From: an uncultured Clostridia bacterium
GTDB taxonomy: Bacteria; Bacillota; Clostridia; TANB77; CAG-508
Direction of reading: 5' to 3'
Length of the DNA: 61,518 bases
Assembly (NCBI GenBank): GCA_948517135.1
Contig: CAORJJ010000001.1
Coordinates: 1-61,518, forward strand
Part shown: piece by piece, positions 43,646 through 58,800 of the stretch
Layout: the number at the start of each line of letters is the position of its first letter
How positions within the stretch are numbered: the stretch's first letter is position 1
Translations under genes and position numbers: made by a program
Notes under the pieces: model-generated
The model's database searches: none
What the model saw: the letters and a program-made list of their open reading frames with translations, nothing else
What the model was told of the DNA's origin: nothing

Positions 43646-45472
43646 TTGAAGAGCGGATTTAAAACATTAGCCACATGGTTAATAATAGGATTAGTAATAC
43701 TTTGTGCTTTAAGTGGATTACTAGGAATGTCAGATAATAAAATTACTTATTCTGAACTTGTTACTAAAATATCATCAGGTGAAATTACTAAAATAGTAAT
43801 ATCAGCAGATGGAATATCTGTTACAGCATATTCAAATGGAAAAGACGAAACAAAAGCTACAAAAGCAGATATTAGTACATCAAGCATTCCAAGTATAGAT
43901 TCATTTATGGAACAAATTTCAGAAAATATAGTAAGTGGACAAATAGAAGTTGAACAAACAGAAGAATCTTTTTTTGTAGAAATACTTAGTTTAATTTCTC
44001 CAGTACTTTTACTATTAATTTTCTTATTATTTAGTTTTGCTATAATGAATCCAAATCAAGGTGGAAATAAATCAATGACATTTGGAAAAAGCAAAGCTAG
44101 AGTACTTAATACAACAGATAGTAATAAAACAAAAATAACATTTAAAGATGTTGCAGGTATAACAGAAGAAAAAGAAGAGCTTGCTGAGATAGTAGAATTT
44201 CTAAAATCACCAAAGAAATTTACAGATATGGGAGCAAGAATTCCAAAAGGAGTTTTACTTGTTGGTCAACCAGGTACTGGTAAAACATTACTTGCAAAAG
44301 CAGTTGCAGGTGAGGCAGGTGTTCCTTTCTTTATTATAAGTGGTTCTGATTTTGTAGAAATGTTTGTTGGTGTTGGTGCTTCAAGAGTTAGAGATTTATT
44401 TGAACAAGCAAAAAAGAACTCTCCTTGTATTATATTTATAGATGAAATTGACGCAGTTGGTCGTCAAAGAGGTGCAGGACTAGGTGGAGGACATGATGAA
44501 AGAGAACAAACATTAAATCAATTATTAGTTGAAATGGATGGATTCTCAGCAAATGAAGGAGTTATAGTTATTGCAGCTACAAACAGACCAGATGTATTAG
44601 ATAAAGCATTATTAAGAGCAGGTAGATTTGATAGACAAATAGTTGTTGGAGCACCAGATGTTAAAGCAAGAGAAGAAATATTAAATGTACATGCAAGAAA
44701 GAAGAAATTAGCAGATGATGTTGAATTATCAACAATTGCTAAAAATACAGCAGGATTTGTTGGTGCAGATTTAGAAAATATTTTAAATGAAGCAGCTTTA
44801 CTTGCTGCAAGAAGAGACAAAGTAGAAATAGGAATGGCAGAAATTGAAGATGCAATGATAAAAGTTACAATGGGACCTGAAAAGAAAACAAGAGTAATAA
44901 GTGATAAAGAGAAAAAACTTGTTGCATTCCATGAAGCTGGTCATGCTGTTGCAAGTCACTTCTTAGAAACACAAGATGATGTACATCAAATTTCAATAAT
45001 TCCAAGAGGAATGGCTGGTGGTTATACAATGTATAGACCATCTGAAGATAGATCTTTTATGAGTAAATCAGAAATGGAAGAACAAATTATATCATTGTTA
45101 GGTGGTAGAGTAGCAGAAGCTTTAGTTTTAGGAGATATTTCTACTGGAGCAAGTAATGATATTGAAAGAGCTTCAAAAATTGCAAGAGCTATGGTTACAA
45201 AATATGGTATGAGTGAAAGATTAGGAGCTATTACTTTTGGTTCAGGACAAGAAGAGGTATTTTTAGGAAGAGATTTTACTCAACAAAAGAACTTTAGTGA
45301 AGAAACATCTGGATTAATAGATGAAGAAGTTAAAAGAATAATTGATACAGCATATAAGAGAACAGAAGACATTTTAAATGAGAATATGGGAAAACTTCAT
45401 AGTGTTGCAAATGTCTTATTAGAAAAGGAAAAGATAGATGGCGAAGAGTTTGAAGGAATAATGAATTCATAA
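43646..45472 (+). CDS. ftsH: ATP-dependent zinc metalloprotease FtsH
   Basis: 608 aa with Walker A GQPGTGKT, the SRH region and Zn site HEAGHAV. TTG start 8 nt after GGGAGG. Confidence 0.96.
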
Positions 45473-45507
45473 ACTACTAGAAATCTAATCTAATTAAATA
45501 CTAAAGC

Positions 45508-45541
45508 AAAAAGCGGAGAAACCAAAGTTCCTCCGCTTTTT
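45508..45541. terminator. Bidirectional terminator between ftsH and the islet
   Basis: Stem AAAAGCGGAG (45509-45518) / CTCCGCTTTT (45531-45540). A-run and T-run flanks. Confidence 0.8.
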
Positions 45542-45548
45542 GTAGTTC

Positions 45549-46115
45549 TTAATTGCTTAATGCATCTTCAATTGTTCCAGTTATTGCTTTTATTGGAACA
45601 CCCAAATCCATAAGACTATGGATTGATGCTGACAGCTTATTAAGTTGCTTATTGATGTGGTCAACATTTTTCTGCTTTTTATTGGCCACAACGTCATTGA
45701 AGTTGATGAAGCGCTTGTCAGAAAAGATGTTAAGCCTCTGGCAGTAAGTGTAAGCTCCTTGCCCAACGACTACACCGATTTCATAACCAATGCCATTGAA
45801 TTGAATGTACACATGAGATTCATGTGCATCTTCAGAATACACAGGCAGAAAGTTATTATCGGCGTATTTTGCAATTCCATTAAAAAAGGAACATAAATTG
45901 TGGACATTTTCGGAGTCAATTGCTGAAAGTTTTTCTGGATCATAAAGCCAAGAATCGTCACTAAACCCATGATTTTTAGCTGTGAATTCTTCCAGCCAAA
46001 GCATATACTTGGTGTTAGAAACGAGTTTCTTAGCTTTCTCCTCAGAGTTAATTAATTCCTGCAATACTTCGTTTACTGCATTTTCAATAGCGCTTTCCCG
46101 AATACTACTGTTCAT
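45549..46115 (-). CDS. Hypothetical protein (188 aa), foreign composition, second gene of a two-gene operon
   Basis: Long ORF with GGAGG 7 nt upstream of the ATG. G+C is clearly above the native level (28/60 at 45721-45780). No TM segments and no motif recognised. Confidence 0.7.
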   Translation of the reverse strand: MNSSIRESAIENAVNEVLQELINSEEKAKKLVSNTKYMLWLEEFTAKNHGFSDDSWLYDPEKLSAIDSENVHNLCSFFNGIAKYADNNFLPVYSEDAHESHVYIQFNGIGYEIGVVVGQGAYTYCQRLNIFSDKRFINFNDVVANKKQKNVDHINKQLNKLSASIHSLMDLGVPIKAITGTIEDALSN

Positions 46116-46138
46116 AAATCTACCTCCATGTTTTTGAA

Positions 46139-46417
46139 TTAGTTGTACCGTTCATCAAAGAAAAGTATGAACTGGTAAATTGTGTTGTCAGGTTCGTAAG
46201 TTGCATAATGGTTGTTACCGATGTTGTTAGAACTGGGTGGAAACTTACTATACATTGGCTTAGTACCCAAAAGATTAGAACAAATAAATAGTAGAGGATA
46301 GACAGAAGATGATTTTATAGAATTGATTTTTTCCTCAAGTTTTTTTGCTATTTCTGCTGGGTTACTATTAGATGGTGGATTTTCATCAACAATATCTACG
46401 TATTCGACTTTTGTCAT
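46139..46417 (-). CDS. Hypothetical protein (92 aa), first gene of the two-gene operon
   Basis: ORF with GGAGG SD, ending 23 nt before the 188-aa gene start. Uses a CGG Arg codon (46148-46150). No family recognised. Confidence 0.6.
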   Translation of the reverse strand: MTKVEYVDIVDENPPSNSNPAEIAKKLEEKINSIKSSSVYPLLFICSNLLGTKPMYSKFPPSSNNIGNNHYATYEPDNTIYQFILFFDERYN

Positions 46418-46474
46418 ATAAATACCTCCAAAATTATTTGAAAATACACGTTAACGAGTTACAAAACACATTTA

Positions 46475-46546
46475 ATTATAACAAAAATTTACTTGATTTG
46501 CAATAGTATACATAATATTGCAAATAGATTTGTTTTTTGATATAAT
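46475..46546. promoter_or_regulatory. Back-to-back divergent promoters sharing a perfect 10-bp inverted repeat (operator)
   Basis: Inverted repeat ATTTGCAATA (46496-46505) / TATTGCAAAT (46516-46525). + promoter: TTGCAA 46518-46523, 17 nt, TGATATAAT 46538-46546. - promoter: TTGCAA 46498-46503, 17 nt, TGTTATAAT (complement of 46475-46483). Confidence 0.7.
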
Positions 46547-46614
46547 ATATAAGATATTTTTATAGTGATGATACAATTTTTTATAAGTAAATACTTGTAT
46601 GAAAGGAGAATGTT

Positions 46615-47046
46615 TTGTTTACTATGTTCAAAATTCCAAAAGAAGTTATTAGAAAAAATAATCAGGCTATGCTTTATTCAGAAATTCTTTTAAAAAGTGG
46701 AATATTAACTCAATTCGAATTAAAGCGGATTGGAGATCTTTTTTCAGAATATCCAATACAGGAAGGGGAGTTAACAGTTCAGATAGTTAGTAGCAAAGAA
46801 AAGAAAAAGCGTATACGAAAATTGCTGACAAGTAATGAAAATTCTGAGAATGGAAATATTGAAGAACGAGTAATTGTACTATTTGGCAAGGTAAAGACGG
46901 GGTATTTTATATTCAATAATGGTGAAATGAAAGAGGTGAAAGCAAAATTTAGCAAGAAAGAAAAGTTTGCAGTAGCTTTTGTTAAAAAGATGTCAAATGG
47001 GAGAGAAACTGTTTTTAGTGAGAGGTTAGTTTTATATATTCCTTAA
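46615..47046 (+). CDS. Hypothetical protein (143 aa), divergent from the 92/188-aa operon
   Basis: TTG start 6 nt after AGGAG. Uses CGG (46726-46728), CGA and GCG codons that are atypical for native genes. No family recognised. Confidence 0.6.
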   Translation: MFTMFKIPKEVIRKNNQAMLYSEILLKSGILTQFELKRIGDLFSEYPIQEGELTVQIVSSKEKKKRIRKLLTSNENSENGNIEERVIVLFGKVKTGYFIFNNGEMKEVKAKFSKKEKFAVAFVKKMSNGRETVFSERLVLYIP

Positions 47047-47064
47047 GTAAGACTAAAAATGAGC

Positions 47065-47100
47065 AAACTCGGAGATGATTTATTATCTCCGAGTTTTGTT
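47065..47100. terminator. Bidirectional terminator between convergent islet genes
   Basis: Perfect 12-bp stem AAACTCGGAGAT (47065-47076) / ATCTCCGAGTTT (47085-47096) followed by TGTTTT. Confidence 0.85.
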
Positions 47101-47107
47101 TTGCTAA

Positions 47108-47713
47108 TTATAGCATGTACTTATTTTTGTGATATCCTTTTAATTTCCATACCTTTTTAATTTGTTCTTTTTCCAGTTCCCAAAATGTTGCTTGTACATA
47201 AGCTGACCGACTTACTATATCAGGAGAAAATATATTTTTCCAGCTGTTTTCTTTATAAGTGATTTTTTCTTCATCTGATAAATTTTCATAATATACATCT
47301 TCTTTATCTGTTTCGAGTTCCCATTCTTCGGATGAAATATTTTCTAATAAACTTGCTTTATAGAAAATGCCATCATTAAGAACTAAATGCCAATGATCAA
47401 AATCAGAGAGTAATACTTTGTTATCTTGTATTTCAATTTCCATAAGAACTGATTCTTCAAATACTCTCATTCCTATTGTTCTCATATCAGGTCTCCGATT
47501 TTTTCCATCAACACGATACCAAGCCCATACAGGAAAAGTTATATCAGCAGATGGATTACCAACTCGATTTTTCATTTCATTAGAAATCCATTTGTAAGCA
47601 TTTATAAAAGAATCCTCCTCTAAAAGAGAACTTAAATGTGGATTACATTTATAAATGCCAGTTGCAGTAAGTGTTTCATAAACATTATAAGGCTGAACTG
47701 TCCATAATTGCAT
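47108..47713 (-). CDS. Hypothetical protein, DUF3841-like (from memory only)
   Basis: 201 aa from ATG 47713 (AAGGAG 8 nt upstream). The N-terminal MQLWTVQP..VYE.L...G.Y recalls DUF3841 proteins. Two in-frame CGG codons (47207-09, 47495-97). Confidence 0.65.
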   Translation of the reverse strand: MQLWTVQPYNVYETLTATGIYKCNPHLSSLLEEDSFINAYKWISNEMKNRVGNPSADITFPVWAWYRVDGKNRRPDMRTIGMRVFEESVLMEIEIQDNKVLLSDFDHWHLVLNDGIFYKASLLENISSEEWELETDKEDVYYENLSDEEKITYKENSWKNIFSPDIVSRSAYVQATFWELEKEQIKKVWKLKGYHKNKYML

Positions 47714-47760
47714 AAGATATCTCCTTAAAATATAAACATTGATATTCAATTGCAATGATT

Positions 47761-47789
47761 ATTATAACACATCCTTTAAGTTATGTAAA
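47761..47789 (-). promoter_or_regulatory. Promoter of the DUF3841-like gene
   Basis: On the minus strand: TTTACA (complement of 47784-47789), 17-nt spacer, extended -10 TGTTATAAT (complement of 47761-47769). Confidence 0.6.
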
Positions 47790-47813
47790 CATTGAGCATA
47801 TTAATTATTAAAT

Positions 47814-47844
47814 AAAAAAAACAGCAGATTTGGATTTCTGCTGT
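47814..47844 (-). terminator. Rho-independent terminator of tRNA-Lys
   Basis: Stem ACAGCAGA (47821-47828) / TCTGCTGT (47837-47844). On the minus strand it is followed by a 7-U run (A-run 47814-47820). Confidence 0.85.
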
Positions 47845-47846
47845 TT

Positions 47847-47922
47847 TGGTGCGCCATCGCGGGATCGAACCGCGGACCTTCTGATTAAGAGTCAGCTGCT
47901 CTACCAGCTGAGCTAATAGCGC
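47847..47922 (-). tRNA. tRNA-Lys (anticodon CUU)
   Basis: The reverse complement folds as a cloverleaf. Acceptor GCGCUAU/AUGGCGC, D-arm AGCUCAGCUGGUAGAGC, anticodon loop CUCUUAA, T-arm CGCGGUUCGAUCCCGCG. CCA is encoded. Confidence 0.93.
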
Positions 47923-50116: not shown

Positions 50117-50804
50117 ATGGGTAATATAAAAGATATACCAACTTCTGAGAGACCATATGAAAAAATGCTTATGTATGGTGAATCAGCTCTTACAAACAGT
50201 GAGCTTCTGTCTATAATAATAAAAACAGGTACAAAAGAGAAATCTTCAATAGAAATTGCTCAGGAGATTATGAGCAAAAATATAGATTATTCAAATAGTT
50301 TAAGATTTTTGCAAACAATTTCAATTCAAGAATTAAGTGAAATTAATGGAATTGGAACAGTAAAAGCAATAGAGCTTAAAGCTGTTGGAGAAATTGCAAA
50401 AAGAATATCAAAACCTTTAAAAATAAATAGATTAAAAATAAAAACTAGAGATGATGTTGTTAATCTTTTTATGGAAGAACTTCAAAATGAAAAGAATGAA
50501 GTTTTAAAAATTGTAATGTTGGATAATAAAAATATTGTAAAAAGAATTTCCTGTATAGCAGTAGGAAATGAAAATAATATTTTTACAAACATAAAGGCAA
50601 TTTTATCTGAACCAATTAAGAATCAGATTCCTAAAATTATTTTAATACATAATCATCCAAGTCGGAAATCCAATGCCAAGTAAAGAAGATATTGAATTTA
50701 CAAAGAAAATTTATAATGCTACAAAACTTGTAGATATAACATTACTAGATCATATAATTATTGGCGATGGAATATATCAAAATGTTGAAATAAATGGTTT
50801 ATAG
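50117..50804 (+). pseudogene. radC: radC (JAMM-family) interrupted by a 1-nt insertion (C at 50663)
   Basis: The zero frame ends ...IHNHPSRKSNAK* at 50683. Skipping C50663 gives [20 protein letters not shown]...[10 protein letters not shown]..* ending at 50804. This is the canonical RadC HNHPSG..PS..D motif and C-terminus. Confidence 0.85.
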
Positions 50805-55024: not shown

Positions 55025-55410
55025 AAAATAAGAAGAAATAAGGTTATGATTAGAATATAATCATAGCCTTTTTCATTTTTATTAAACAAACTTATACCAA
55101 TATTCTGGGTCTCTAAAATAGTAAGTAAATTGGCAATTTTTATATACTGCTCTAACTTTTCTTGTTTTTCTTCTTCTAAATAAGGCTTTATAGATTGAAG
55201 CAATTTATTTCTAGGGCAATCACGATTTTGATTGATTTTTGTTAACACTTCTTTTATTTTTAATATAGTATTAATATCCAAAGAAAAATCTGAGTTTGTA
55301 TTTTCACATTCATCTTGTTTATTCCCAGAAGTAAAATTGTTTAAATCAATATCTTTTTCTTTAAGTATATTTTGAAATTTAGAGAAAATTTCTGAAAAGT
55401 CTTCATTCAT
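55021..55410 (-). CDS. Hypothetical protein with C-terminal TM helix
   Basis: 129 aa with native composition. Convergent with minC, with a 3-nt overlap. No family recognised. Confidence 0.55.
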   Translation of the reverse strand: MNEDFSEIFSKFQNILKEKDIDLNNFTSGNKQDECENTNSDFSLDINTILKIKEVLTKINQNRDCPRNKLLQSIKPYLEEEKQEKLEQYIKIANLLTILETQNIGISLFNKNEKGYDYILIITLFLLIF

Positions 55411-55411
55411 A

Positions 55412-55531
55412 TTATTTATCTTCTTTCTTTAAATTTGTATTTTCTAGTATCTGTTGAGCCTTATAAAGGTTCTTTTCAAGTTCTTCTTTATCCATTTTAG
55501 AAATTGCAGATAAAATTTTATTAATATCCAT
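55412..55531 (-). CDS. Possible 39-aa small protein upstream of the 129-aa gene
   Basis: ATG 55531 preceded by GGAGG (complement of 55548-55552). Sequence MDINKILSAISKMDKEELEKNLYKAQQILENTNLKKEDK. The stop lies 1 nt before the next start. Not in the ORF track because it is too short. Confidence 0.4.
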   Translation of the reverse strand: MDINKILSAISKMDKEELEKNLYKAQQILENTNLKKEDK

Positions 55532-55863
55532 ATTATCCAAGATAAACTACCTCCTATCTGTAGCATTTTTTTGTATTAATATATGTATATGCAACTTAAA
55601 TGAAAAAGTTGCCAAAAAAACTTAGGGATTTCCACAAATTGTTCATAAACTGTGGAAAACAAAGCATTTAAAGAAAAATGTAATTAAAACTTAATATTTA
55701 TTCAGTTCAGAATCTTAGTAAACACTTCCGTAAAAGGAAAAGTGAAGTGATGAGAAAACCTAGCAAATAGTGCCATTTACAAAGTTTTATAAACAGAGTA
55801 ATATTATATAGTAATATAAAAAAATAGACGTATTTCGTTAATTCTAAAGAAAAGGAGTAATTT

Positions 55864-58800
55864 ATGGAGACAATGAAAGCTAGAAAAAACAGATTTTTAG
55901 TAATTTTAATTGTATTTATGATTTTGTTTTCAAACTTTGGCTATACAATCACTGCAATAGCTACAAGTGATGAATTTGAAGTTATAACCAAAGGACTTTT
56001 CCAAAAAGATGAAGTTAAGTTTAATGCTTATTTTGAAGACGAAAATGGCAATAAAACAACTGAAATTACTGAAAATGTAAAAGAAAAAGTAAAACTAGTT
56101 GTTGAAGTTTTACCACAAGTAGAGGGATATTTGAAAACTGGAACAATTAAAGCAGTTTCAAGTAATGACGATAATATAAACTTTAAATTTACTAGTGTTA
56201 CAGAAAATCTTTTAAGTGATAGAAATTATCAAGCAGCTTTAAAAGATGTTCTTGTAAATGATACTGAGCAAAAGGAGGAAGAGCTTAACGTACCTGAAGA
56301 ACAACCATCTATTAATGATGTTCTTGTACAAGAGCCAGAAGAAAATGTAATTGATACAGATTCTACTAATACTATAGCTCAAAATACAGTAGATACAAAT
56401 GAAGTTGCAGGAACTGATAATACATCAGTATTTCAAAATGCATTATCAAATGAAGAACAATCAAACCCATTTGCTTCTGCATTAGAAACACAAGGAACAT
56501 CTGTAAATGAAAGTGATACAAATACAGCTCAAAGTAATCCATTTTTAGATGCATTATCAACAAATACAGCAGTAGAAGATACAAAAGCAACTGAGTCAGT
56601 AAATCCAAACACAGATACAGTGCAAGATCAAACACCAGACACAGTAGAAGAAAATGATGAAGAGCCAATAGTATCAGAAGATACTTTAGTAAATGAAGAA
56701 GAAATAATTAAAGAGAAAACAGAAGAATCTAGAATAAATGAAGAAATAAGAAATGCTATTCTAGATATTAAGCTTGTATCTGAAAATGAAATTAGTTTAA
56801 ATAATATTATTGATGATACAAAAATTGAGATAGAGATTGAATACAACCAAGGTGAAACATTTAATGTACAAGATTTATTAAAAGATATCAAATTACAAAT
56901 GAGTGGAACATACATTAATAGAAATCTTGAAGAAGTAAAAGTTGGTAAAGAAGAAGAAATCACAATTGGATGGGAATATACAAAAGATATTTCTTTAGAA
57001 AGTGAATTTACAAAATTCTCTCCATTTGAATTACAAGAGATACATGGAACAATAGTAGAAAACAAAATTACAGTTACAAGAGATATTCAAGATGAAAAAT
57101 ATTTACCAGTAAAATCTACAAGACTAGAAATTGTAGTTCCAGAAGTTAATGGAAAAAAACCAATAGCAGTAGATGTTTTAGCAAGTAAATTATTAGCAAC
57201 AAAAGGTGAAGACTCAGGATATGTAACATTTAATTCTGAAAATTGGAATTATGATGATGTAAATGGTTTAATAAATGTTTTTGTAGAAAACGACCAAAAT
57301 GCTTACTCATCAGGAACTGACGAATACGTAATTATATATAGATATGAAGATTATATTAGTAGCGAAAATTCTAACTTATTAAAGAATGTAAAAGCAACAG
57401 TTACAGAATATAGTGGAACAGAAAACAATACAATTATTAAAGAAATTAAAGATTCACAAGAGATTAAAGTAGATGTTGGTGAATTAGTTACTTATAGTAT
57501 TGGAACAAATGAAGATATTCTAAACAAAGGTAGAATTTATGCAAACTACAATTCAGAAAATGCATTGTATGAAACTACATTTACAAATCAAGTAAATGTA
57601 AATGTTTTAACAAGTGATGTTTTACAACAATTAAAATTAGACTGTTCAAAAGATGTTTATAAAGATGCTAACGGAGTTGAACTTCCTGCACAAGGAATCG
57701 AATATAAAGAAATAAAATTCAATTTTTCAGAAATTAGTTCAATATTATCTGAAGGTGGAGAAATAGTAATAACAAATACAGCAAATGAAACACTATATAT
57801 TTTAAACAAAGATGCTGTTACAAAAGAAGAAGATTGTGTTATTGGATTAAATGGTGCAAATGGAATTTATGTTTATGTAAATAATATTTCAAGAAATGGA
57901 GCAATTAATTTTGAAATAACAAAAGCAATTAAGAAATGTAATTATGACAAATCTATTTTTAAAGGAATTACTCAAATTGAAACTAGAATTTCAGGAGAAG
58001 TTAAATACTTAAACATAGAAGATAGACTTGCATTACAAACAATAGCAATAGCTAAAAATTTTGAAGAGAGTAAAACAGAAGCTACATTATCTATTAGTAG
58101 AACTTCATTATCTACAATAAGTTCAAATGATAATGTAGAGTTAAAAATTGAATTGAACAATGATAAAGAAACAAGCGATTTATATATAAATCCAAGTTTT
58201 GAAGTTGTATTCCCTAAATATGTAAAATCAGTTGCAATTGAATCTATAAACTTACTAAATGATTGTGGATTAAGAGTTAGTGATTTTGAAACATATACTG
58301 AAAGTGACCTTGTAAAATTGAGAATTGAACTAAGTGGAACTCAAACAACATTTAGTGAAAATTCAATTACAAATGGTACAAACATTATAATAAATGCAAA
58401 TATTGAAGTTGATAATTATGCACCAGCAAGAGAAGACCAAGTAAAACTATATTACTGCAATGAGGGTGTAGCAACATATCAAGCTCAAACAAAGTGGTCA
58501 TTAAATAAAAAAGCTGTACCAAATGGTATTTTAAAAACAACAAATGGATTTGACGTAGAAGTTATTAAATACCAAGCTCCAACAGGACTTTTAGCTATAA
58601 ATGGTATAGTTAATTATGATGGGAATTTAAGTGAAGTAAGATCTGTAAAACAAGGAGAAGTTGCAAAAGAGATTCCTGTAAACTCACCATCAAGAATTGC
58701 AACAATGGAATTACTTGCATTAAATAATACAGAAAATACTTGTTCAGATGTTATTTTACTAGGAAGAATTCCTTTCAAAGGAAATAAAGATATTATTTCT

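What the first reader, a model, noticed from the sequence alone, without database searches (positions are those of the whole stretch)
45549..47846. tRNA-Lys-adjacent islet of four compositionally foreign, family-less genes (best candidate for an undescribed module)
Seen: the 2.2 kb between the ftsH terminator and the tRNA-Lys terminator holds four small genes of 188, 92, 143 and about 201 aa. Their composition differs from everything around them. Hand counts give 28/60 and 21/60 G+C for 45721-45780 and 45781-45840, against 8-18/60 in the native lines I sampled. CpG is frequent. Arg is encoded by CGG four times (46148-50, 46726-28, 47207-09, 47495-97), whereas I found no ordinary in-frame CGG in about 17,600 native codons. 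The ORF track shows the stacked spurious ORFs expected of a GC-richer insert. Each transcription unit has a GGAGG-type SD, a near-consensus promoter and strong hairpin terminators, so the insert is self-contained. Two promoters carry the identical extended -10 TGTTATAAT that the HIT cassette at 34.4 kb also uses. Three of the four genes run head-on to the + strand housekeeping array. I cannot place three of the proteins in any family, and the fourth only recalls DUF3841. No integrase, transposase or repeat of the tRNA 3' end is present. Inference: compact, promoter-autonomous, tRNA-flanked ORFan clusters in conserved backbone positions are where defence, conflict or toxin-immunity modules are typically found. 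No catalytic motif was recognised, so the function is open.
Basis: partly seen in the sequence, partly recalled or inferred. Interest (0 to 1): 0.72.

Follow-up and report, generated by a model that had tools for sequence, protein, structure and literature searches.

The report
Hypervariable cassette of four uncharacterised genes
Between ftsH and a tRNA-Lys gene, an uncultured low-GC gut Clostridia bacterium carries four real, selected but uncharacterised genes that are unusually diverse between strains and match no known defence, toxin or mobile-element system, so their function remains open.

Summary
The four genes are real. dN/dS against a sister lineage is 0.10-0.28. Their composition is atypical: GC3 is 0.36, 0.29, 0.25 and 0.18 against about 0.10 for native genes, and CpG o/e is 0.61 against 0.30.

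"Family-less" is only half right.
- A (188 aa) belongs to a large family absent from the curated libraries searched: 702 representatives at 50% identity. Its model is confident (pLDDT 96.8) with no PDB or BFVD structural match.
- D is a full-length DUF3841 protein.
- B and C are found only in this clade.

B-A and the divergent gene C keep their order, and a conserved dyad-symmetric promoter region, in five lineages. In one lineage the B-C-D block has a different right flank. Remote A and D homologues occur without the other genes.

All 44 same-species contigs read carry the cassette, as does a sister lineage. Within the species it is a sharply bounded, mosaic patch of 21.6-fold higher SNP density.

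Searches found no defence model, phage or viral relative, integrase or att repeat.

Verdict: a real accessory cassette spread by recombination. A role in genetic conflict is plausible but unproven. Interest is moderate.

The parts
45507..45542 (.). Bidirectional hairpin terminator shared by ftsH (+) and gene A (-). It marks the left edge of the cassette and of the high-diversity patch, whose first SNP against L082 is at 45512.
   Evidence: (I4: 16-nt arms, 94% complementary)
45549..46115 (-). Gene A, 188 aa. Acidic, soluble protein (pI 5.2). Second gene of the B-A bicistron, with its own GGAGG Shine-Dalgarno site. Member of a large family absent from the curated libraries searched. GC3 0.36.
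   Evidence: dN/dS 0.105; 702 representatives; pLDDT 96.8
46139..46417 (-). Gene B, 92 aa. Acidic (pI 5.0). First gene of the B-A bicistron, 23 nt upstream of A. Found only in this clade at 50-96% identity, always upstream of an A orthologue where the contig reaches that far.
   Evidence: (dN/dS 0.28)
46418..46614 (.). Conserved divergent control region. The B-A promoter is on the - strand: -35 at 46503-46498 and TGTTATAAT at 46483-46475. The C promoter is on the + strand at 46518-46546. Together they form a 72-bp dyad (46475-46546) around the invariant core TTGCAAyAGTATACATAATrTTG at 46498-46520.
   Evidence: I1; 79-83% identity across lineages where B coding DNA is 66-68%
46615..47046 (+). 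Gene C. 143 aa from the TTG at 46615, or 140 aa from the ATG at 46624. Basic (pI 9.8). It is the best conserved protein of the cassette (76-84% between lineages) and is found only in this clade.
   Evidence: (dN/dS 0.14)
47065..47096 (.). Bidirectional hairpin terminator shared by the convergent genes C and D.
   Evidence: I5
47108..47713 (-). Gene D, 201 aa. Full-length DUF3841 (PF12952) protein with 9 Trp residues. It is its own transcription unit. It carries a premature stop at Trp65 in a minority of strains.
   Evidence: 96 bits, cutoff 27; dN/dS 0.23
47761..47789 (-). Promoter-like site for D: TTTACA, 17 nt, then TG-extended TATAAT. Homology with the L090 copy of the block ends at 47791, which gives the right edge of the cassette.
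47818..47922 (-). tRNA-Lys(CTT) at 47847-47922 and its terminator hairpin at 47818-47847. This is a boundary marker, not part of the cassette. It is absent next to the block in L090.

Best explanation
Shown: the segment is a clade-restricted accessory cassette of three transcription units, wedged between the ftsH terminator and the tRNA-Lys terminator. Its composition is atypical, which points to a horizontal origin. Purifying selection maintains it, and it is fixed in this species and its sister lineage. Divergent alleles are exchanged by homologous recombination, so its diversity is far above that of the flanking core genome.

Inferred: the functional core is the B-A bicistron plus the divergently transcribed gene C. 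They share a strongly conserved, dyad-symmetric promoter region. I propose that the basic protein C, or an unknown host factor, binds this dyad and co-regulates both promoters. A is a soluble alpha/beta protein. Its nearly invariant residues are mostly hydrophobic or aromatic, and no conserved His, Cys, Ser or Lys was seen. I therefore take it to be a binding or recognition protein rather than an enzyme. Its sequence turns over quickly at fixed chromosomal sites, as specificity determinants in genetic conflicts do (immunity or sensor-like proteins). B is a clade-specific partner of A. D (DUF3841) is a separately transcribed, partly dispensable passenger.

The biochemical activity of all four proteins is unknown. 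The confidence given is for this whole statement, including the inferred regulatory and conflict-type parts. The shown part alone I would put at about 0.8.
For: Real genes:
- dN/dS against sister lineage L084 is 0.105 (A), 0.28 (B), 0.14 (C) and 0.23 (D).

Atypical composition:
- GC3 is 0.18-0.36 against about 0.10 for native genes, and CpG o/e is doubled.
- The same block also has raised GC3 in L090.

Fixed in the clade:
- All 23 contigs with the identical FtsH and all 21 with the identical CoatF carry it. Sister lineage L084 carries it at the same place.
- None of the 80 ftsH loci from other species has any of the four genes.

Recombination and high diversity:
- Window against L082: 95 SNPs in 2372 bp between 45512 and 47709, against 16 in 8627 bp of flank. 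That is 21.6-fold, Fisher p = 2e-47.
- There are no SNPs in B, and alleles are reassorted among strains.

Linkage:
- A-B|C order is kept in the window species, L084, L123 and L124; L090 keeps B|C-D but its contig ends at B. A is 57% identical over the 70 residues held in L123 (88% in L084), and B is 50-63% identical in L090, L123 and L124 (about 80% in L084).
- The control region is 79-83% identical with an invariant core. The core is unique in the window.
- C has pI 9.8.

A family:
- 702 representatives. No consistent Pfam, NCBIfam or PADLOC match. Model pLDDT 96.8 with no structural match above TM 0.41.
- Between L098 and L119 the flanks are 83-90% identical in DNA, but the A-family gene between them is only 44% identical in protein.
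- Tandem paralogues occur in L083 and L095.

D is dispensable in some strains:
- A stop codon replaces invariant Trp65 in L117, and split products appear on about 22-24 contigs.
Against: - No activity, ligand or partner has been identified for any of the four proteins.
- There is no direct evidence that C binds DNA. No HTH or other DNA-binding family was detected.
- Conserved gene order among five lineages could be plain inherited synteny, since they may all be close relatives.
- Remote A homologues never have B, C or D beside them.
- DUF3841 genes on plasmids have none of A, B or C beside them.
- The cassette is fixed rather than variably present, which is unusual for defence cargo.
- Polarised substitutions show no GC-to-AT excess, so a recent import is not demonstrated (the counts are small).
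- There are no defence-model hits.
Confidence: 0.37

Rival explanations
1. The four genes are functionally unrelated. Lineage-specific hypothetical genes accumulated in a permissive gap at a synteny breakpoint. Higher diversity and odd composition reflect weak constraint plus recombination, not a shared role.
For: - There are three separate transcription units, each with its own promoter and terminator.
- Remote A homologues and DUF3841 genes occur singly, in unrelated housekeeping or plasmid contexts.
- Relatives with 70-72% FtsH identity have quite different genes downstream of ftsH, so the site is a synteny break.
- D is pseudogenised in some strains.
- No family or system annotation exists beyond DUF3841.
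Against: - A-B|C order (A, B and C together in L084 and L123; at least B|C in L090 and L124) and a 197-bp control region more conserved than the B coding sequence persist in five lineages.
- B-C-D moves or persists as a block with a different right flank in L090.
- All four genes are under purifying selection.
- The diversity excess is mainly synonymous. pS is 0.13-0.155 for A and C against 0.005-0.02 in flanks. Weak protein constraint alone cannot give this.
Confidence: 0.33
2. The segment is the cargo remnant of an integrative element (prophage, ICE or genomic island) that entered at the 3' end of tRNA-Lys and later lost its integrase and att sites.
For: - The cassette abuts the 3' end and terminator of tRNA-Lys(CTT).
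- Its composition is atypical.
- In L090 the same block is followed by a fragment matching a phage-type transcriptional regulator, phrog_2657, E 1e-10.
- DUF3841 occurs in accessory regions of large plasmids.
Against: - There is no integrase or transposase ORF.
- No repeat of the tRNA 3' end occurs anywhere in the window, even with 3 mismatches.
- A, C and D have no relatives in IMG/VR. D has none in GenBank phages. The dyad core does not occur in viral contigs.
- PHROGs gave no significant hits.
- No empty site was found in any strain.
- In L090 the block is not next to a tRNA.
Confidence: 0.15
3. B-A is a type II or tripartite toxin-antitoxin module, similar in layout to omega-epsilon-zeta: B is an acidic antitoxin, A the toxin and C the transcriptional regulator.
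For: - A small acidic upstream gene is followed 23 nt later by a larger gene in one operon.
- The promoter region is palindromic.
- A basic protein is encoded divergently.
- The locus shows fast sequence turnover.
Against: - No toxin or antitoxin family was hit in Pfam, NCBIfam or PADLOC.
- A-family genes stand alone, without any B-like gene, in L094, L098, L104, L106, L107, L110, L119 and L122. A toxin should not do this.
- The nearly invariant residues of A are mostly hydrophobic or aromatic and show no recognisable catalytic or Walker-type motif.
Confidence: 0.08
4. These are ordinary native genes of the clade with a housekeeping or sporulation-related role. Their odd codon usage is intrinsic rather than a sign of foreign origin.
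For: - The cassette is fixed in every same-species contig read and in the sister lineage.
- Substitution counts are balanced between GC-to-AT and AT-to-GC, which suggests compositional equilibrium.
- The organism appears to be a spore-former, with a CoatF gene next door.
- A-family genes in other genomes sit at conserved positions among housekeeping genes, for example CAP - A - prs - nrdG - nrdD.
Against: - SNP density is 21.6-fold higher than in the flanks, with mosaic alleles.
- Allele replacement is gene-sized at the CAP|prs locus.
- D is pseudogenised in some strains.
- The genes are absent near ftsH in all other species sampled.
- GC3 is up to 3.5 times the native level.
Confidence: 0.07

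Closest known systems
Pfam DUF3841 (PF12952), for gene D
   Same: The match is full length: residues 3-186 to model positions 2-178 of 178, 96 bits against a cutoff of 27, E 2.8e-27. The conserved Trp-rich motifs (PvWaW, rPD, LSDfD.W..VLN) are shared with plasmid-borne members from Paenibacillus, Bacillus and Azospirillum.
   Different: The family has no known function, no solved structure and no mention in the searchable literature. Other members are not next to A, B or C.
Defence islands and hotspot cassettes of variable anti-phage genes at conserved chromosomal sites
   Same: It is a compact unit with its own promoters, atypical composition and mixed gene orientation, lying between conserved core genes next to a tRNA. 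Allelic diversity is strongly elevated and alleles are replaced by recombination.
   Different: No component matches any of 5027 PADLOC models. There are no known defence neighbours. The cassette is not variably present, since all 44 same-species contigs read carry it. No nuclease, ATPase, NTase, TIR or Sir2-type domain was found.
Tripartite toxin-antitoxin operons such as omega-epsilon-zeta, and orphan immunity-gene arrays of polymorphic toxin systems
   Same: A small acidic protein is encoded directly upstream of a larger one. The promoter is palindromic. A basic protein could act as regulator. Sequence turnover is fast, and A occurs as tandem paralogues in L083 and L095.
   Different: No homology to any toxin, antitoxin or immunity family was found. 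A usually stands alone without B. No toxin-domain gene is nearby.
tRNA-associated genomic islands and islets
   Same: It is adjacent to the 3' side of a tRNA gene, has atypical G+C and codon usage, and carries accessory cargo.
   Different: It has no integrase, no direct repeat of the tRNA end and no empty site. It is only 2.3 kb long.

Membership tests
Pfam DUF3841 (gene D) | Score above the Pfam gathering threshold over the whole model | tested here: met
   96.0 bits against 27. Residues 3-186 match model positions 2-178 of 178.
Pfam DUF3841 (gene D) | Shares the family's conserved residues with annotated members | tested here: met
   18 columns, including W42, W63, W65, P75, S103, D104, W108, N113, W158 and Q174, are invariant across D and three RefSeq 'DUF3841 domain-containing' proteins.
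Pfam DNA_pol3_delta (gene A, weak hit) | Consistent match of the family to the HolA N-terminal domain | tested here: not met
   22.4 bits against a cutoff of 21, covering only model positions 30-91 of 124. Only 2 of 95 A-family members hit it. No PDB clamp-loader match by sequence or fold.
Known anti-phage defence systems (PADLOC-DB v2) | At least one component matches a defence-system HMM | tested here: not met
   No hits for A, B, C or D. Only scattered weak hits, none shared by more than 2 of 95 A-family members. None for 6 DUF3841 members.
Known anti-phage defence systems (PADLOC-DB v2) | Variable presence among strains, or location among other defence genes | tested here: not met
   Present in all 23 + 21 same-species contigs read and in the sister lineage. 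Neighbours are tilS, ftsH, tRNA-Lys, CoatF, an M23 peptidase, radC and mreCD.
tRNA-targeted integrative genomic island | Integrase or recombinase gene | tested here: not met
   Only the four ORFs plus short overlapping spurious ORFs lie in 45473-47846. No recombinase family was found.
tRNA-targeted integrative genomic island | Direct repeat of the tRNA 3' end (att site) at the far boundary | tested here: not met
   The 25-nt tRNA 3' end occurs once in the window, even allowing 3 mismatches. Direct repeats in the region are short chance-like pairs.
tRNA-targeted integrative genomic island | Atypical composition and adjacency to the tRNA 3' end | tested here: met
   GC3 is 0.18-0.36 against about 0.10. 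The cassette ends about 55 nt from the tRNA 3' end.
Type II / tripartite toxin-antitoxin module | Two small co-transcribed genes with an autoregulatory palindrome | tested here: met
   B and A are 23 nt apart and share one promoter and one terminator. The promoter lies in a 72-bp dyad. The layout is met. Autoregulation was not tested.
Type II / tripartite toxin-antitoxin module | The toxin gene is always accompanied by its antitoxin, or matches a toxin/antitoxin family | tested here: not met
   A homologues stand alone in at least 8 loci. No TA family hit.
Polymorphic-toxin immunity genes | Adjacent toxin-domain gene, or match to a known Imm or SUKH family or fold | tested here: not met
   No such neighbour in 10 contexts examined. 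No Pfam Imm or SUKH hit. Foldseek against PDB gave a best TM of 0.2.
Polymorphic-toxin immunity genes | Hypervariability and tandem paralogues | tested here: met
   44% protein identity between alleles at a locus whose flanks are 83-90% identical in DNA. Tandem pairs occur in L083 and L095.

The most novel reading that the evidence does not exclude
B-A plus C is a previously undescribed, self-regulated conflict module, acting in phage or plasmid defence or in immunity to a toxin. In this reading the A family, which has hundreds of members in low-GC Firmicutes and a fold with no solved relative, is a fast-evolving recognition component. It is exchanged as a gene-sized cassette at fixed chromosomal sites. 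DUF3841 would be a second, independent conflict-related protein.
Probability: 0.2. Interest if true: 0.7.

Novelty: new variant of a known kind. Interest (0 to 1): 0.42.

Why it matters
If the conflict-type reading holds, the A family would be a new class of hypervariable cytoplasmic proteins in gut and rumen Firmicutes. It has at least 702 clusters at 50% identity, no curated model, and a confident predicted fold with no solved relative. It would also give DUF3841 its first functional context. Even without a known function, the locus is a clean natural example: a 2.3-kb cassette whose alleles are far older or more exchanged than the surrounding core genome. That makes it a convenient marker for strain-level recombination in an uncultured gut Clostridia species. 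If the genes prove unrelated, this is an ordinary patch of hypothetical genes.

Tried and rejected
- **DNA_pol3_delta hit for A:** spurious. It barely passes the cutoff, covers part of the model, and only 2 of 95 family members match.
- **Weak hits for C and D:** DUF3598_N for C (E 0.052) and DUF5846 for D (E 0.013) are below their cutoffs.
- **Other libraries:** PHROGs, NCBIfam and PADLOC gave nothing meaningful for the four proteins.
- **PDB sequence and profile searches** for A, B, C and D gave only noise.
- **First AlphaFold run on A** with 3 sequences was unusable (pLDDT 55). The 95-sequence run gave pLDDT 96.8, but Foldseek against PDB and BFVD found nothing above TM 0.41.
- **B as a decayed A paralogue, and C related to D:** rejected by hhalign (probabilities 0.5 and 0.9).
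- **Viral origin:** no relatives of A, C or D in IMG/VR. No phage hit for D. The dyad core is absent from viral contigs.
- **Empty-site search:** the FtsH scan of GTDB genomes returned only relatives at 72% identity or less, with unrelated downstream genes.
- **Amelioration test** with L090 as outgroup showed no GC-to-AT excess. The counts are small.
- **Rfam:** only the tRNA matched. RNAalifold on the control region gave no covariation support.
- **Apparent domain fusions of A-family members** look like gene-call chimeras, for example with KsgA.
- **Literature:** searches for DUF3841 and PF12952 found no paper.


Full report
**1. What is at 45549-47846**

The window is about 27% G+C. Its cumulative GC skew rises steadily, so the + strand is the leading strand. 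The nearest species representatives found are uncultured gut Clostridia MAGs, with only 70-72% FtsH identity. Window genes are identical to those of MAG GCA_948996025.1.

Four ORFs lie between the ftsH stop at 45472 and tRNA-Lys(CTT) at 47847-47922 on the - strand:
- A: 45549-46115, - strand, 188 aa.
- B: 46139-46417, - strand, 92 aa.
- C: 46615 or 46624 to 47046, + strand, 143 or 140 aa.
- D: 47108-47713, - strand, 201 aa.

They form three transcription units.
- B-A is a bicistron with a 23-nt spacer, and A has its own GGAGG site. Its promoter-like site is at 46503-46475. Its terminator at 45542-45507 is shared with ftsH.
- C has a promoter-like site at 46518-46546 and a terminator at 47065-47096.
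- D has a promoter-like site at 47789-47761 and uses the same hairpin on the other strand.

Terminator-like hairpins are enriched (5 against 1.3 expected). The count of promoter-like sites is not (13 against 13.2), so promoters are supported by position only.

**2. Check of the observation**

Codon-level composition is clearly atypical.
- GC3 is 0.362 (A), 0.293 (B), 0.245 (C) and 0.18 (D). It is 0.06-0.16 for almost all other ORFs of 90 aa or more. Examples are ftsH at 0.094 and tilS at 0.115.
- CpG o/e is 0.61 in the islet and 0.30 elsewhere.
- Five in-frame CGG codons lie in the islet: the four listed plus 46098-46100 in A. Three lie elsewhere in the window.

The 'shared' TGTTATAAT is at chance level: 5 copies against 3.6 expected. 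There is no integrase and no repeat of the tRNA 3' end.

**3. The genes are real and selected**

Sister lineage L084 carries the same four genes at the same place. Against it, dN/dS is 0.105 (A), 0.28 (B), 0.14 (C) and 0.23 (D). For comparison, ftsH is 0.05. All four proteins are soluble, with no hydrophobic segment. A, B and D are acidic. C is basic with pI 9.8. D has 9 Trp residues.

**4. Families**

*D.* D is a full-length DUF3841 protein (96 bits, E 2.8e-27). It shares the invariant Trp-rich motifs of annotated members. The family has no solved structure and no literature. Other members sit in accessory stretches of large plasmids among hypothetical genes. Nearby genes there include Doc, HTH regulators, RepB, NucS and RNase H. 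None has A, B or C nearby. No phage hits were found.

*A.* The word-indexed search found almost nothing for A. The exhaustive profile search found 702 representatives at E <= 1e-3, and 437 at E <= 1e-10. So A belongs to a sizeable family of proteins about 190 aa long.
- The family is absent from the curated libraries searched. Pfam gave only a spurious DNA_pol3_delta hit in 2 of 95 members. The NCBIfam scan of A itself and PADLOC scans of A and of 95 family members gave no family-wide match, and sources give no names.
- With a 95-sequence alignment, AlphaFold gives pLDDT 96.8 and pTM 0.87. The model has a long N-terminal helix, a helical bundle, a three-stranded beta-meander and two C-terminal helices.
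- Foldseek finds nothing significant in PDB (best E 0.05, TM 0.2) or BFVD (best TM 0.41).
- The nearly invariant residues are mostly hydrophobic or aromatic, plus D67, N88, Q119 and P174. This gives no sign of a catalytic centre.

*B and C.* These have relatives only in this clade. No family or PDB hits were found. B is not a decayed A paralogue.

**5. Do the genes travel together?**

Within the clade they do.
- L123 has A (57% identity over the 70 residues present), B (51%) and divergent C (77%).
- L124 has the start of an A gene, then B (54%) and C (80%).
- L090 has B (58-63%), C (84%) and D (64%).
- L084 has all four.

In L090, DNA homology to the window runs only from 46322 to 47791. It then gives way to a 459-aa unknown gene, a 71-aa gene and a fragment of a phage-type regulator (phrog_2657, E 1e-10). 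There is no tRNA. So the block has at least two different right-hand contexts.

The 197-bp B|C intergenic region is 79-83% identical across these lineages, while B coding DNA is only 66-68%. The two promoters form a 72-bp dyad at 46475-46546. Its invariant core is TTGCAAyAGTATACATAATrTTG. The core occurs nowhere else in the window and in no viral contig. This supports co-regulation of B-A and C. Assigning C as the regulator is an inference from its charge and position only.

Outside the clade they do not travel together. Remote A homologues at 28-51% identity are single genes among housekeeping genes:
- CAP/SH3 - A - prs - nrdG - nrdD in L098, L099 and L119-L121.
- HD/WDGH - A ... proS in L106.
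- mutY - A - DAHP synthase in L110.
- Also L104, L107 and L122.
- smc followed by two tandem paralogues in L083, and a tandem pair in L095.

None has B, C or D nearby.

**6. Population behaviour**

All 23 contigs with the identical FtsH and all 21 with the identical CoatF carry the cassette. None of the 80 ftsH loci from other species does, although synteny is already lost in those.

Within the species the cassette is a sharply bounded island of diversity.
- Window against L082: 95 SNPs in 2372 bp between 45512 and 47709, against 16 in 8627 bp of flank. That is 21.6-fold, Fisher p = 2e-47.
- The excess is mainly synonymous. pS is 0.155 for A and 0.133 for C, against 0.005-0.02 in ftsH, tilS and the M23 peptidase gene.
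- The pattern is mosaic. B is identical between these two strains, and alleles of A, B, C and D are reassorted among strains.
- Against three other strains the excess is only about 2-fold. The pattern therefore reflects exchange of divergent alleles, not a uniformly higher rate.

The A family shows the same behaviour at another locus. Between L098 and L119 the flanks are 83-90% identical in DNA, yet the A-family gene between them is 44% identical in protein.

D carries a premature stop at invariant Trp65 in L117. Split D products occur on about 22-24 contigs.

Substitutions polarised with L090 as outgroup show GC-to-AT counts about equal to AT-to-GC counts. The raised GC3 is therefore not visibly decaying. 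The same block also has raised GC3 in L090, at 0.22-0.32 against 0.14-0.16 for its two complete neighbour genes.

**7. Interpretation**

*Shown.* This is a real, selected, compositionally atypical and clade-restricted cassette. It has a conserved internal architecture and recombination-driven hyper-diversity.

*Inferred.* B-A and C are co-regulated through the dyad, and A is a non-enzymatic recognition or binding protein. The behaviour resembles loci involved in genetic conflict.

*Not shown.* There is no evidence of any link to phage defence, toxin-immunity or mobility. No defence model, defence neighbour, toxin domain, integrase, att site or viral relative was found.

Rivals are listed with the tests that would separate them: unrelated genes at a synteny break, a remnant of a tRNA-targeted element, a tripartite TA module, and native genes.

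**8. Verdict**

The 'family-less' claim and the 'defence or toxin-immunity module' inference are only partly supported. Two results deserve follow-up: the large A family, which is absent from the curated libraries and has a fold with no solved relative, and the cassette-like hyper-diversity. Overall this is one of many uncharacterised accessory gene clusters in uncultured Firmicutes. I rate the interest as moderate, at 0.42.

Noticed in passing
window 34499-35554 (+): A 351-aa HIT-domain gene (Pfam HIT, 27.4 bits) is a second compositional outlier: GC3 0.30, 20 CpG and one CGG codon. It may be another horizontally acquired gene. The gene before it (33849-34364) has only a sub-threshold Zn_dep_PLPC hit.
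   Followed up: partly
L098 5874-6653 against L119 about 830-1748: At a conserved locus (CAP/SH3 gene | prs-nrdG-nrdD) the flanks are 83-90% identical in DNA. The A-family gene between them is only 44% identical in protein, so it behaves as a gene-sized hypervariable cassette. In L098 it also has GC3 0.32 against 0.10 for its neighbours.
   Followed up: partly
L117 5848-6453; corresponds to window 47108-47713: Gene D (DUF3841) carries a premature stop at the invariant Trp65 in some strains. The split 64-aa and 125-aa products are recorded on about 22-24 contigs.
   Followed up: yes
window 50117-50683 and the next small ORF; L081 14472-15159: radC is called as 188 aa plus an overlapping 43-aa ORF, both hitting Pfam RadC, in every strain examined. 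This could be a conserved frameshift or a split gene.
   Followed up: no
window 46418-46614: The B leader (TATTTTCAAATAATTTTGGAGGTAT on the - strand) is invariant across five lineages. A small hairpin just 5' of the C Shine-Dalgarno site (ATAAGTA...TACTTrTAT) is nearly invariant. There is no Rfam match and no covariation support.
   Followed up: partly
window about 55400-61518: No + strand ORF is listed over about 6 kb, although the skews look like coding sequence. The likely cause is one very large + strand gene that runs off the end of the window.
   Followed up: no
L092 4548-5438 (Bacillus velezensis plasmid pAD3): The DUF3841 protein here has an N-terminal extension of about 100 aa with two repeats of a motif of the form 'LGRPP...FGSW.KAL..AG'. 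From memory this resembles homing-endonuclease-associated repeats. That would be a possible hint of a nucleic-acid-related role for DUF3841. It was not tested.
   Followed up: no
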